From the sequence record OZ035736.1: 40,525 nt of DNA; one strand, written 5' to 3'. Below are positions 24,442 to 29,278 of the stretch, one piece after another. Both the position numbers and the translations under genes were made by a program. Each line of letters begins with the position of its first letter. Position 1 is the stretch's first letter. Source of the DNA: Przondovirus NAN33P6. Below the pieces are notes generated by a model, which did no database searches, was not told the DNA's origin, and saw nothing but the letters and a program-made list of their open reading frames with translations.

Positions 24442-25473
24442 ATGGCTAACATGCAAGGTGGACAGCAGCTCGGTACTAACCAAGGTAAAGGTCAATCCGC
24501 AGCAGACAAGCTGGCGCTATTCCTGAAAGTATTCGGCGGTGAAGTCCTGACCGCATTCGCTCGTACCTCTGTGACCGCCAACCGTCACATGCAGCGTCAA
24601 ATCAGCTCCGGTAAGTCCGCACAGTTCCCTGTGATTGGTCGCACCAAGGCTGCTTACCTGCAACCGGGCGAGTCTCTGGATGACAAACGTAAAGACATCA
24701 AGCACACCGAGAAGACCATTAACATTGATGGCCTGCTGACTGCGGACGTGCTGATTTACGACATCGAAGACGCGATGAACCACTATGACGTGCGCTCCGA
24801 GTACACCTCTCAGATTGGTGAGTCTCTGGCGATGGCAGCTGATGGTGCGGTACTGGCTGAGCTGGCTGGTCTGGTTAACCTCGCGGATTCCGTCAACGAG
24901 AACATCGCTGGTCTGGGCAAACCGTCCCTGCTGGAAGTTGGCGCTAAGGCTGACCTGACCGACCCGGTCAAACTGGGCCAAGCGGTTATCGCACAGCTGA
25001 CCATCGCTCGTGCAGCTCTGACCAAGAACTACGTCCCGGCGAACGACCGTACGTTCTACACCACCCCGGACGTATACTCTGCGATTCTGGCGGCTCTGAT
25101 GCCTAACGCTGCGAACTATGCGGCTCTGATTGACCCTGAGCGTGGTTCTATCCGTAACGTGATGGGCTTCGAGGTCGTCGAGGTTCCGCACCTGACCGCT
25201 GGTGGTGCTGGTGATGACCGCCCGGACGAAGGCGCAGAAGCGACCAACCAGAAGCACGCCTTCCCGGCAACTGGTGGTAAAGTCAACAAAGAGAACGTTG
25301 TGGGCCTGTTCCAGCACCGTTCCGCTGTTGGTACCGTTAAGCTGAAAGACCTCGCTCTGGAGCGTGCTCGCCGCGCTGAGTATCAGGCTGACCAGATTAT
25401 CGCTAAGTATGCGATGGGCCATGGTGGTCTGCGTCCAGAATCTGCTGGTGCACTGGTTTTCACAGCAGCCTAA
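24442..25473 (+). CDS. 10A: Major capsid protein, T7 gp10A homolog
   Basis: 343 aa; AAGGAG RBS; broad similarity to T7 gp10A; ends ...HGGLRPESAGALVFTAA with GGTTTTC heptamer at 25455-25461. Confidence 0.95.
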   Translation: MANMQGGQQLGTNQGKGQSAADKLALFLKVFGGEVLTAFARTSVTANRHMQRQISSGKSAQFPVIGRTKAAYLQPGESLDDKRKDIKHTEKTINIDGLLTADVLIYDIEDAMNHYDVRSEYTSQIGESLAMAADGAVLAELAGLVNLADSVNENIAGLGKPSLLEVGAKADLTDPVKLGQAVIAQLTIARAALTKNYVPANDRTFYTTPDVYSAILAALMPNAANYAALIDPERGSIRNVMGFEVVEVPHLTAGGAGDDRPDEGAEATNQKHAFPATGGKVNKENVVGLFQHRSAVGTVKLKDLALERARRAEYQADQIIAKYAMGHGGLRPESAGALVFTAA

Positions 25474-25751
25474 GCGTAAATACCTTTAGTGCTCGGACGG
25501 TAACTCCGTCTGAGTACGAGGTACAGACTGTGACCATTGCTGGTGATTCACTTAAGGTGACACTTGATGGGCTGGAGGGAGTAACGGACTGGTCAACCCT
25601 TGAGGTAACTTACGGTACTTCCGGGATTGCCAGCCATACTCGCCGGACCAACACGCTGTACTTCAAAGGAATCGCTGTGGGCGAAACTCTAGTGACTGTC
25701 AGCTTTGACGGGTCTGAAAGGAAGTCCTTTAAGCTGGTCGTGACTAATTAA
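24442..25751 (+). CDS. 10B: Minor capsid protein gp10B-like, predicted product of a -1 frameshift near the end of 10A
   Basis: Heptamer G_GTT_TTC at 25455-25461; the -1 frame is open from 25461 to the stop at 25749-25751 (covers ORF 25530..25751); mirrors the T7 10A/10B arrangement. Confidence 0.6.
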
Positions 25752-25763
25752 AACTAAGCCAAA

Positions 25764-25801
25764 CCCCTTGGGGACCACTCACGGTCTCTGAGGGGTTTTT
25801 T
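25764..25801 (+). terminator. T-phi-like intrinsic terminator downstream of gene 10
   Basis: CCCCTTGGGGACCACTCACGGTCTCTGAGGGG hairpin followed by TTTTTT; close to recalled T7 T-phi. Confidence 0.85.
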
Positions 25802-25818
25802 CGTTAGGAGCTTACATT

Positions 25819-26397
25819 ATGAACATGCAAGATGCTTACTTTGGGTCTGCCGCTGAGCTGGATGCTGTCAACGAGATGCTCGCAGCTATCGGTGAATCCC
25901 CGGTGACAACCCTTGACGAAGATGGTAGTGCAGACGTGGCGAACGCTCGTCGTATCCTCAACAGGATTAACCGCCAGATTCAGTCTAAAGGTTGGGCCTT
26001 CAACATCAACGAGTCGGCCACACTGACCCCGGACGCCAGCACTGGGCTTATCCCATTCCGCCCTGCCTACCTGTCCATACTTGGTGGCCAGTACGTTAAC
26101 CGTGGTGGCTGGGTGTACGATAAGTCCACAGGGACGGACACCTTCTCTGGACCAATCACCGTGACCCTGATTACCCTTCAGGACTACGACGAGATGCCTG
26201 AGTGTTTCCGCCAGTGGATTGTCACCAAGGCCAGCCGCCAGTTCAACTCTCGGTTCTTCGGAGCGGAGGACGTAGAGAACTCTCTGGCACAGGAAGAGAT
26301 GGAAGCACGGATGGCGTGCAACGAGTACGAGATGGACTTCGGACAGTACAACATGCTCGACGGTGACGCATACGTTCAGGGTCTCATCGGTCGTTAA
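25819..26397 (+). CDS. 11: Tail tubular protein A, T7 gp11 homolog
   Basis: 192 aa; [78 protein letters not shown] match T7 gp11. Confidence 0.95.
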
Positions 26398-28867: not shown

Positions 28868-29278
28868 ATGTACATAAGAAACACCGTAAGTAATGACTTC
28901 GAGTTATTCATCCCGGCCTACCATGACGTACTTGAGGCGCAGGCCATGGGTATAGAACCATCGTTCCCAGCGGTTACTGAGTGTGTCACGTTAGACCACG
29001 ATGGTTTTCCTTTGGCTATAGGTGGACACTGCGGAGACCAGTGCTGGTTCGTCACGAGTGACCAAGTGTGGAGACTCGACAGGGCTGGCAAGCTGGAGTT
29101 CCGTGAGAGAATCATGGAGTACAGGGACATGTTATTAAATGTTTATCCATCCCTGTGGAACTTCGTGTGGGTCGGTAATGGTCCCCACAAGCGGTTCCTT
29201 AAGTCCATCGGTGCTGTATTCCACGAGGAGTACACTCAGGGTGGGAAGTTCCAACTGTTCACCATAACGAGGAGGTAA
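28868..29278 (+). CDS. 13: Internal virion protein, probable gp13 homolog
   Basis: 136 aa; position and size as T7 gp13 between phi13 and gene 14. Confidence 0.7.
   Translation: MYIRNTVSNDFELFIPAYHDVLEAQAMGIEPSFPAVTECVTLDHDGFPLAIGGHCGDQCWFVTSDQVWRLDRAGKLEFRERIMEYRDMLLNVYPSLWNFVWVGNGPHKRFLKSIGAVFHEEYTQGGKFQLFTITRR

What the first reader, a model, noticed from the sequence alone, without database searches (positions are those of the whole stretch)
25455..25751. Programmed -1 frameshift site at the end of the major capsid gene giving an extended 10B-type product
The heptamer G GTT TTC sits seven codons before the 10A stop. The -1 frame from 25461 is open for about 97 codons to 25751, and the T-phi terminator follows only after this extension. 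This reproduces the T7 10A/10B architecture, with the extension sequence differing from T7 and likely decorating the capsid surface.
Basis: partly seen in the sequence, partly recalled or inferred. Interest (0 to 1): 0.45.

Follow-up and report, generated by a model that had tools for sequence, protein, structure and literature searches.

The report
Frameshifted capsid tail with Ig-like domain
This Klebsiella T7-like phage very probably makes a minority of its head protein with an extra surface domain by letting ribosomes slip back one base near the end of the gene, a trick already known from T7, T3 and closer relatives.

Summary
The window is a Przondovirus (Klebsiella K11/KP32-like, T7 family). 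Major capsid gene 10A is 24442-25473. G_GTT_TTC lies at 25455-25461 in the slippery phase. The -1 frame is open from there to TAA 25749-25751, and a T-phi-like terminator follows at 25761-25798.

- All 48 distinct relatives keep the -1 frame open from the heptamer.
- Substitutions fall on -1-frame third positions.
- No start codon is conserved. The annotated GTG 25530 is GTA or GTC in 18 of 48, and starting there would cut the first beta strand.
- Relatives in three other genera, 40-50% identical in the domain, show the same arrangement.
- The GenBank record of one of them, Citrobacter phage CR8, annotates this 10B as a -1 frameshift product with mass-spectrometry matches.

The predicted 10B has 436 aa (46.4 kDa): 10A residues 1-340, a disordered linker of about 20 residues resembling the start of T7 10B, and a 7-strand Ig-like sandwich (pLDDT 91). 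The domain is unrelated in sequence to the T3 10B domain.

The stimulatory RNA is unresolved. A 12-bp hairpin with compensatory changes lies 27 nt downstream, too far for a canonical stimulator.

Verdict: new member of a known kind, mis-annotated in every Przondovirus record read. Low to moderate interest.

The parts
24442..25473 (+). Gene 10A, major capsid protein (343 aa, 36.4 kDa), zero frame
   Evidence: ORF list. Pfam Gp10A-like 1e-102. 97-98.6% DNA identity to Przondovirus records. Mass.
25407..25470 (+). Overlap window: the only stretch where a -1 shift can join 10A to the extension. The -1 frame opens after TAA 25404-25406 and the 10A stop is at 25471.
25455..25461 (+). Slippery heptamer G_GTT_TTC (zero frame ctG GTT TTC). 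tRNA-Phe would re-pair from UUC to UUU.
   Evidence: Sequence. GGTTTTC in 46 of 48 distinct relatives and C_GTT_TTC in 2. Identical heptamer in T7 and in K5-2-type phages and in CR8, Vec13, Peacock, ST21, EcL30g and Q19. PP81 has A_GTT_TTC.
25461..25751 (+). -1 frame extension of predicted 10B: 96 codons plus TAA. Full 10B = 24442..25461 joined to 25461..25751, 436 aa, 46.4 kDa.
   Evidence: Third-position substitution bias in the -1 frame.
25461..25520 (+). Linker-coding part (extension residues 3-22, HSSLSVNTFSARTVTPSEYE). Predicted disordered. Aligns with the start of the T7 and K5-2-type 10B extensions.
   Evidence: pLDDT below 50 for residues 1-19. Alignment A3.
25521..25748 (+). Ig-like (Big_2-like) 7-strand beta-sandwich domain, extension residues 23-98
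   Evidence: AlphaFold2 pLDDT 91.1 with the diverse alignment. Foldseek hits to the N4 capsid decoration protein, the lambda gpV Ig-like domain and BIG2 proteins. A profile search reaches a Big_2-containing protein at E = 2.8e-5.
25530..25532 (+). GTG used as the start of the separately annotated 73-aa 'minor capsid protein' in public records. Here interpreted as an internal Val codon (extension residue 26).
   Evidence: GTG in 30 of 48, GTA or GTC in the rest. No in-frame start position is shared by all. It lies inside predicted strand A, residues 23-27.
25489..25517 (+). Conserved RNA hairpin: 12-bp stem GUGCUCGGACGG / CCGUCUGAGUAC with loop UAACU. It can extend to 25481-25523. Role unknown.
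   Evidence: Two adjacent pairs show compensatory double changes (AU to GC in 20 sequences, CG to UA in 18) with wobble intermediates. 98.8% of cells are paired. Folding z = -4.65 for 25455-25530.
25656..25676 (+). Invariant block CUGUACUUCAAAGGAAUCGCU, the predicted long-range partner of 25473-25487 and 25518-25526. Speculative.
   Evidence: Predicted by RNAalifold and by the single-sequence minimum-energy fold. All 18 pairs are invariant or change on one side only, so covariation cannot test them. The invariant runs are not statistically unusual (permutation p = 0.39).
25761..25798 (+). T-phi-like intrinsic terminator after the extension
   Evidence: Annotated as terminator phiTE in the K11 record.

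Best explanation
Most ribosomes translating gene 10 terminate at TAA 25471 and make 10A (343 aa). A minority slip one base backwards on G_GUU_UUC (25455-25461): tRNA-Phe in the A site re-pairs from UUC to UUU. These ribosomes continue in the -1 frame to TAA 25749 and make 10B (436 aa, 46.4 kDa).

10B is the complete capsid fold (residues 1-340), a flexible linker of about 20 residues, and an Ig-like beta-sandwich of about 76 residues. Like T7 10B, it would co-assemble into the shell at sub-stoichiometric level, with the Ig-like domain on the outer surface. Such domains on phage particles are generally thought to give weak adhesion to carbohydrates.

Shown here: the sequence anatomy, conservation of the frame, coding-type evolution of the extension, absence of a conserved start codon, the predicted fold, and homology to extensions annotated as frameshift products in other genera. 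Inferred: that the slip occurs in this phage, its efficiency, incorporation of 10B into virions, and any binding activity.
For: 1. The heptamer is identical to T7's, at the homologous position and in the same phase. The review PMC5009743 lists G_GU-type X_XXY_YYZ sites with T7 gene 10 as the example.
2. In all 48 distinct relatives the -1 frame is open for 98-99 codons from the heptamer. The zero-frame tail varies in length (VFTAA*, VFKAASA* and others).
3. Variable sites in 25530-25748 fall on the -1-frame third position: 37 of 73, against 22 and 16 at the other two positions. The 10A body shows 76 of 100 against 18 and 18 in its own frame.
4. No start codon is conserved. An in-frame NTG is present at 25530 in 30 of 48, at 25521 in 13, at 25497 in 21, and one sequence has none before 25557. 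Gene callers give 73-, 76-, 83- and 84-aa ORFs.
5. Predicted strand A (extension residues 23-27) lies upstream of or across the annotated GTG at residue 26.
6. The linker upstream of every candidate start aligns with the first ~20 residues of the T7 and K5-2-type 10B extensions.
7. Domain homologues at 40-50% identity sit in the same -1 frame, open from the shift site. The site is CTG GTT TTC in CR8 (Caroctavirus), in Vec13, Peacock, ST21 and EcL30g (Kayfunavirus) and in Q19 (Pektosvirus). It is GCA GTT TTC in PP81. Linkers differ in length: the extensions are 90-105 codons.
8. Peacock is annotated likewise.
9. Kvp1 10B was shown by MS to arise by -1 frameshifting at TTTTCA (PMC2579914).
10. 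The Ig-like fold is predicted at pLDDT 91.1. Foldseek TM scores are 0.64-0.68 to the N4 capsid decoration protein and the lambda gpV Ig-like domain, and 0.79 to the PP81 'minor capsid protein'.
Against: There is no protein or ribosome-profiling evidence for any Przondovirus in the papers searched.

The ten Przondovirus GenBank records whose annotation was read carry no join for 10B. The one-line feature lists of the other listed hits name only separate genes.

No canonical stimulator lies 5-9 nt after the heptamer. The conserved hairpin starts 27 nt downstream, or 19 nt if extended.

An invariant GAGG at 25517-25520 lies 9 nt upstream of GTG 25530, so some internal initiation cannot be excluded in genomes that have that GTG.

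Two relatives have C_GTT_TTC and PP81 has A_GTT_TTC. P-site re-pairing is therefore not conserved, and the slip would rest on the A-site U_UUC.

No natural in-frame fusion of the capsid protein to this domain was found among 112 protein clusters.
Confidence: 0.85

Rival explanations
1. The downstream ORF is an independent small gene, as annotated in most records. It would be translated from GTG 25530 (or another nearby GTG) using the GAGG at 25517-25520. The product would be a free 73-84-aa Ig-like decoration protein that binds the capsid non-covalently, like the separately encoded minor capsid protein of Vibrio phage Peru-2.
For: Public records annotate a separate 73-aa 'minor capsid protein' or hypothetical protein, one of them with a ribosome-binding site. 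GAGG is invariant in the 48 relatives and lies 9 nt before GTG 25530. Free Ig-like decoration proteins exist in T7-like phages (Peru-2 preprint).
Against: The GTG is GTA or GTC in 18 of 48 relatives, which is synonymous Val variation. No alternative start position is shared, and one genome has none before 25557. The 25 codons upstream of the GTG are never interrupted by a stop in 48 of 48 relatives, nor in seven distant relatives whose linkers differ in length. Starting at 25530 would remove most of beta strand A. The upstream linker resembles the T7 10B linker. The homologous CR8 product is annotated as the frameshift fusion with MS matches. The invariant GAGG also lies inside predicted RNA helices.
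Confidence: 0.08
2. The open -1 frame is an unexpressed remnant of a recombination event, or an accidental ORF. G_GTT_TTC is conserved only because it encodes the conserved Leu-Val-Phe of the capsid C-terminus.
For: The heptamer encodes conserved residues (ALVF or AVVF) and so is constrained anyway. The chance probability of an open frame in a single sequence is not negligible, about 0.016.
Against: The frame is kept open in every relative across four genera despite 50-60% amino-acid divergence. Third-position substitution bias, 43 residues invariant across the 19-sequence alignment A1, and a confidently predicted fold all indicate a translated, selected protein.
Confidence: 0.03
3. The extended product arises from RNA-polymerase slippage on the T run (insertion of one U in the mRNA), not from ribosomal slippage.
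For: A run of four T is present at the site, and an extra U would give the same protein.
Against: From general knowledge, productive transcriptional slippage normally needs homopolymer runs much longer than four. The T7 and Kvp1 cases with the same motif are described as ribosomal. This was not tested here.
Confidence: 0.03

Closest known systems
Bacteriophage T7 gene 10A/10B programmed -1 frameshift (Condron, Atkins & Gesteland 1991, as cited; reviewed in PMC5009743)
   Same: The heptamer G_GUU_UUC is identical, in the same phase and at the homologous position. TTC is followed by three sense codons before the stop in both. The capsid protein family is the same. The extension runs up to the T-phi terminator. 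The first ~20 residues of the extension are alignable (GFHSSLSVNTFSA... against GFQSGVMLGVAST...).
   Different: The T7 extension is 53 aa after the Phe and, per the review, is not an Ig-like domain. Here a 76-residue Ig-like sandwich replaces that tail. T7 has a G-run after the site that is thought to interact with CCCC in the terminator; that G-run is absent here.
10B of Citrobacter phage CR8 (Caroctavirus) and of kayfunaviruses such as Escherichia phage Peacock
   Same: The domain family is the same, with the motifs VTDWS..L.V, TRRTN.LYFKG and YDGS..RSF. The heptamer CTG GTT TTC, the -1 frame and the terminator directly after are also shared. CR8 and Peacock are annotated as -1 frameshift joins, and the CR8 record notes MS matches.
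   Different: The genus differs, identity in the domain is only about 40-50%, and the linker sequences differ. None of the Przondovirus records whose annotation was read has the join.
Bacteriophage T3 / phiYeO3-12 10B (Ig-like Big_2 extension via -1 frameshift)
   Same: [quoted passage not shown] There is fold-level resemblance: T7M gp10B appears among the BFVD hits at TMq 0.52.
   Different: The slippery site differs (C_CCA_AAG, on a Lys codon). The two domains show no detectable sequence similarity (BLASTP no hit; hhalign probability 0.06%). The acquisitions therefore look independent.
K5-2-type przondoviruses (same genus)
   Same: They share the heptamer, the CCTTTAGTGC just downstream, and the terminator.
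   Different: The -1 extension has 46 codons and is homologous to the T7 10B tail (TPQQKAAITRARNKALK against TPAQEAARTRAANKARK). It has no Ig-like domain and is unannotated in about 100 records.

Membership tests
T7-type gene 10 programmed -1 ribosomal frameshift (10A/10B) | Slippery heptamer G_GUU_UUC (or equivalent) in the zero frame near the 3' end of the major capsid gene | tested here: met
   25455-25461, phase ctG GTT TTC. Same as T7. GGTTTTC in 46 of 48 relatives.
T7-type gene 10 programmed -1 ribosomal frameshift (10A/10B) | A -1 frame ORF that overlaps the end of 10A and runs on to just before the T-phi terminator | tested here: met
   The -1 frame is open from 25407 to 25748, and the terminator is at 25761-25798.
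T7-type gene 10 programmed -1 ribosomal frameshift (10A/10B) | The extension is a selected coding sequence that depends on upstream translation (no initiation signal of its own) | tested here: met
   Third-position bias. No conserved start codon. The frame is kept open upstream of all candidate starts in 48 of 48 relatives and in seven relatives from other genera.
T7-type gene 10 programmed -1 ribosomal frameshift (10A/10B) | A longer capsid species with a junction peptide detected in virions | not testable with these tools
   Evidence is indirect only: the CR8 record notes MS matches for the homologous 10B, and Kvp1 10B was shown by MS.
T7-type gene 10 programmed -1 ribosomal frameshift (10A/10B) | A 3' stimulatory element (in T7, distal sequences including CCCC of the terminator) | tested here: inconclusive
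   The terminator has CCCC, but there is no G-run after the heptamer. A covarying hairpin lies 27 nt downstream. The candidate long-range helices are invariant and cannot be tested. No Rfam family matches.
T7-type gene 10 programmed -1 ribosomal frameshift (10A/10B) | Extension homologous to T7 10B | tested here: inconclusive
   Only the first ~20 residues align, which is too short for statistical support. The rest is a different domain.
Phage Ig-like (Big_2-type) surface domains appended to structural proteins | Ig-like beta-sandwich fold | tested here: met
   AlphaFold2 pLDDT 91.1, seven strands. Foldseek TM 0.64-0.68 to the N4 decoration protein and the lambda gpV C-terminal domain. BIG2 proteins appear in BFVD.
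Phage Ig-like (Big_2-type) surface domains appended to structural proteins | Match to the Pfam Big_2 (PF02368) or a related Ig-like HMM | tested here: not met
   No Pfam hit even at E <= 10. PHROG 7473 is 'unknown function'. The only link is a weak profile match to a protein that contains Big_2 (P0118, E = 2.8e-5).
Phage Ig-like (Big_2-type) surface domains appended to structural proteins | Carbohydrate or mucin binding, or another adhesion activity | not testable with these tools
   Inferred only, from what is reported for T3 and other phages.
CR8/Kayfunavirus-type 10B domain family | Sequence homology of the extension domain | tested here: met
   tblastn with P0114 finds 448 phage records, including przondoviruses, CR8, kayfunaviruses and Pectobacterium phages. 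The alignment shows shared motifs.

The most novel reading that the evidence does not exclude
Frameshifting in this family may not use a canonical adjacent stimulator. It may instead use a structured RNA domain that begins about 20-30 nt after the heptamer. The domain would consist of the covarying 12-bp hairpin (25489-25517) set in a three-way junction, closed by long-range helices between 25473-25487 plus 25518-25526 and 25656-25676. Comparable hairpins at similar distance fold in Kayfunavirus, CR8 and Q19 mRNAs. If real, this would give a structural handle on the long-unexplained requirement for distal 3' sequences in T7 gene 10 frameshifting.
Probability: 0.15. Interest if true: 0.5.

Novelty: new member of a known kind. 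Interest (0 to 1): 0.25.

Why it matters
Several hundred Klebsiella phage genomes are involved, many of them phage-therapy candidates. They carry this gene annotated as a separate small 'minor capsid' or hypothetical protein, or not annotated at all. The correct product is most likely a 436-aa capsid variant that displays an Ig-like domain.

This matters for three practical reasons:
- genome annotation;
- interpreting virion proteomics, where a band near 46 kDa is expected;
- engineering, since the 10B C-terminus is the natural display site, as in T7 and K1F.

It also bears on whether capsids of these phages adhere to capsule, mucus or other glycans. Within one genus the extension comes in two exchangeable versions, Ig-like and T7-like, which is a compact example of module swapping behind a conserved recoding site.

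It does not change what is known about recoding.

Tried and rejected
- Pfam on the extension gave nothing. PHROGs gave only an unknown-function family.
- BLASTP and hhalign against the T3 10B Ig-like domain found no similarity. I therefore dropped the idea that this is the T3 domain.
- The first AlphaFold2 run, with a shallow alignment of close relatives, was mediocre (pLDDT 66.8). It improved only after adding distant homologues.
- Synonymous-site conservation as evidence for the long-range helices: the two 7-codon invariant runs are not significant (permutation p = 0.39), so the long-range model stays speculative.
- Rfam found no family in 25300-25900.
- A search for in-frame capsid-domain fusions among 112 protein clusters found none.
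- The large proteins in the representative search (P0113, P0119, P0120) are repeat proteins with weak partial matches and were not used.
- Literature searches found no proteomic or structural evidence on 10B in Przondovirus. The original Condron 1991 paper is not held in the library. The CR8 genome announcement does not mention the frameshift; only the GenBank record does.
- IMG/VR scans with P0114 and P0115 returned nothing.
- The second GGTTTTC at 29003 is not in the slippery phase.

Full report
**What the window is.** The 1.36-kb segment 24442-25800 is 97-98.6% identical to Przondovirus genomes. These are Klebsiella phages NAN33P2, KpV92, KP32 isolates and K11, in Autographiviridae, Studiervirinae. 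The ORF 24442-25473 encodes a 343-aa protein that matches Pfam Gp10A-like at 1e-102. It lies between the scaffolding gene and the tail tubular A gene, which starts at 25819, as in T7.

**Check of the observation.** The sequence reads ...GCA CTG GTT TTC ACA GCA GCC TAA. G_GTT_TTC therefore occupies 25455-25461 in the slippery phase, and the 10A stop is 25471-25473. Read as GGT TTT CAC..., the -1 frame has 98 sense codons and ends at TAA 25749-25751. A terminator-like hairpin with 16 pairs and a T run follows at 25761-25798. The K11 record annotates it as a terminator.
TTC is followed by three sense codons.
- An open run of 96 codons has a chance probability of about 0.016. The longest open -1 run inside 10A is 50 codons.
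- The -1 frame opens at 25407, so any shift must occur in 25407-25470. G_GTT_TTC is the only in-phase slippery-type site in the entire 10A frame.
- The other GGTTTTC of the window, at 29003, lies in gene 13 in the phase GGT TTT C.

**Is the extension translated, and from where?** I collected 48 distinct sequences of this region from GenBank phage records and IMG/VR contigs and aligned them.
- In all 48 the -1 frame is open for 98-99 codons from the heptamer. The zero-frame tail varies: VFTAA*, VFKAASA*, VFTAAQA* and others.
- In 25530-25748, variable sites fall on the -1-frame third position: 37 of 73, against 22 and 16. The 10A body does the same in its own frame: 76 of 100, against 18 and 18.
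- The GTG at 25530, which most records use as the start of a separate 73-aa 'minor capsid protein', is GTG in only 30 of 48. Elsewhere it is GTA or GTC, which is synonymous valine variation.
- Other in-frame NTG codons occur at 25497 (21 of 48), 25500 (4) and 25521 (13). One genome has none before 25557.
- Automatic gene callers accordingly give ORFs of 73, 76, 83 or 84 aa for the same gene.
- An ORF that is always open upstream of its inconsistent starts, back to a conserved slippery site, is what a frameshift-dependent extension looks like.

**Evidence from more distant relatives.** A profile search of 1.8 billion representative proteins found short homologues at about 45-55% identity (P0114-P0117). 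tblastn with one of them hit 448 phage records. I read the loci of seven phages:
- Pectobacterium phages PP81 and Q19 (Pektosvirus);
- Citrobacter phage CR8 (Caroctavirus);
- Escherichia phages Vec13 and Peacock, Salmonella phage ST21 and Enterobacter phage EcL30g (Kayfunavirus).

In every one the homologous domain lies in the -1 frame relative to 10A. That frame is open from CTG GTT TTC (GCA GTT TTC in PP81) for 90-105 codons, and linker lengths differ. The CR8 record annotates 10B as a joined CDS. Its note reads 'matches in mass spectrometry analysis; predicted translation by a -1 internal frameshift', and the run 'tttt' is marked. Peacock is annotated by reference to CR8. The related phage Kvp1 was shown by MS to make 10B by a -1 shift at TTTTCA (PMC2579914). 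T7 itself has the identical heptamer at the homologous place. T3 uses C_CCA_AAG.

**What the product is.** The predicted 10B is 10A residues 1-340 followed by 96 residues. That makes 436 aa and 46.4 kDa, against 36.4 kDa for 10A.
- The first ~20 extension residues are predicted disordered. They align with the start of the T7 and K5-2-type 10B extensions: GFHSSLSVNTFSA... against GFQSVGLRVAAFSA... and GFQSGVMLGVAST.... This is suggestive but too short for statistics.
- The remaining ~76 residues fold, with a diverse alignment, into a 7-strand beta-sandwich at pLDDT 91.1 and pTM 0.77.
- Foldseek against the PDB puts the phage N4 capsid decoration protein first (9e99, 27% identity, TMq 0.64). The Ig-like C-terminal domain of lambda gpV (2l04, TMq 0.65) and Big_2 modules follow.
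- Against BFVD the best hit is the PP81 'minor capsid protein' (TM 0.79). BIG2, carbohydrate-binding and capsid-decorating proteins follow, as does gp10B of T7M.
- Pfam does not recognise the domain, and PHROG 7473 is 'unknown function'.
- It has no detectable sequence similarity to the T3 10B Ig-like domain. The two look like independent acquisitions of Ig-like modules behind a capsid frameshift site. The review literature describes this pattern for phage Ig-like domains in general (PMC5009743).
- Predicted strand A (extension residues 23-27) spans the annotated GTG at residue 26. A protein started there would lack that strand.

**Distribution.** About 300 phage records carry this long extension. 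About 100 Klebsiella phage records carry a 46-codon T7-like extension behind the same heptamer, left unannotated (K5-2 type). The two types share CCTTTAGTGC just after the 10A stop, and they share the terminator. The variable part therefore behaves as a cassette between conserved flanks.

**RNA signals.** No stem-loop lies at the canonical 5-9 nt from the heptamer.
- A 12-bp hairpin at 25489-25517 is conserved. Two adjacent pairs show compensatory double changes (A-U to G-C in 20 sequences, C-G to U-A in 18). G-U and U-G intermediates occur, and 98.8% of cells are paired.
- These changes alter amino acids in the disordered linker (Thr/Val/Ala/Met at residue 15, Ser/Pro at residue 19). That argues for selection on the RNA rather than on the protein.
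- The hairpin can extend to 25481-25523 (z = -4.65).
- Both RNAalifold and the single-sequence fold place the hairpin in a three-way junction. Long-range helices to 25656-25676 close the junction (z = -5.2 for 25470-25680).
- Those helices are invariant, so covariation cannot test them. The invariant runs are not statistically unusual.
- Hairpins at similar distance also fold in Kayfunavirus, CR8 and Q19 sequences, on single-sequence folds only.
- T7 frameshifting is reported to need distal 3' sequences, so an atypical stimulator is conceivable. I cannot assign this hairpin a role. Rfam has no matching family.

**Rivals.** Independent initiation of a free small Ig-like protein is the annotated view. 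The invariant GAGG 9 nt before GTG 25530 speaks for it. The non-conserved starts, the always-open upstream frame, the truncated strand A and the CR8 annotation speak against it. I give it about 0.08, and partial dual expression cannot be excluded. An unexpressed remnant ORF is contradicted by coding-type conservation across four genera. Transcriptional slippage on a run of four T is unlikely on general grounds and was not tested.

**Verdict.** This is an ordinary member of the T7-family 10A/10B recoding system, carrying the CR8/Kayfunavirus-type Ig-like module. What is new is modest:
- every Przondovirus record whose annotation was read mis-annotates the gene;
- the module can be assigned an Ig-like fold although Pfam has no family for it;
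- a downstream hairpin with covariation has no known role.

No experiment exists for this genus in the literature I could search.

Noticed in passing
L008 1363-1500 (Klebsiella phage K5-2); about 100 similar records: A second type of Przondovirus has the same GGTTTTC followed by a 46-codon -1 extension homologous to the T7 10B tail (GFQSVGLRVAAFSATVESEPEEVALTPQQKAAITRARNKALKSMEQ). No feature is annotated there in the records listed.
   Followed up: partly
L047 (IMGVR_UViG_3300045988_007064), alignment A2 columns 284-321: This contig has a deletion that removes the last ~14 codons and the stop of the extension. GAAATGA is joined directly to the terminator, so the -1 frame runs into the terminator stem. 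It could be a natural truncation or an assembly artefact.
   Followed up: no
window 25471-25479 and alignment A2 columns 32-40: The 10A stop is polymorphic among close relatives. TAA at 25471 is TCA, CAA or CGA in many, and 10A then ends two codons later at the invariant TAA 25477-25479. The -1 reading (L/S/P-S) tolerates this.
   Followed up: partly
L045 and L050 (Dickeya-phage-like contigs); L053 1414-1420 (PP81): The first base of the heptamer is not conserved: C_GTT_TTC in two relatives and A_GTT_TTC in PP81. P-site re-pairing seems dispensable, and only GTTTTC is universal.
   Followed up: partly
L055, L056, L057 and L059, about 28-100 nt after the heptamer: Kayfunavirus mRNAs share ACCUUUAAGG followed by a different GC-rich hairpin (GGCCCUCUCUACAGAGGGUCC). 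A closing helix to CUUGAAGGUU encloses it. The topology is analogous to the K11-type ACCUUUAG plus hairpin, seen on single-sequence folds only.
   Followed up: partly
window 25656-25676: The 21-nt block CTGTACTTCAAAGGAATCGCT (encoding LYFKGIA) is invariant in all 48 relatives, including synonymous sites. It is complementary to invariant sequences at 25473-25487 and 25518-25526. It is not statistically exceptional on its own.
   Followed up: partly
P0019; H195 OR786095.1: A copy of the extension ORF is deposited as a partial hypothetical protein of Flammeovirga agarivorans on a 562-nt contig. A 39,989-nt T7-like genome with this domain is labelled Staphylococcus phage MBBL139. Both look like contamination or mislabelling.
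   Followed up: no
L007 (phage HJK2), P0058 (PP74), L006 (KN4-1): Annotation noise in public records. The capsid gene is called 'tail protein' in HJK2. The extension ORF is called 'putative capsid assembly protein' in PP74. An 'endonuclease VII' CDS overlaps the end of gene 11 and the start of gene 12 in KN4-1.
   Followed up: no
window 29003-29009: The only other GGTTTTC on the + strand lies in gene 13 (28868-29278), in the phase GGT TTT C. It is not a frameshift candidate and served as a negative control.
   Followed up: yes
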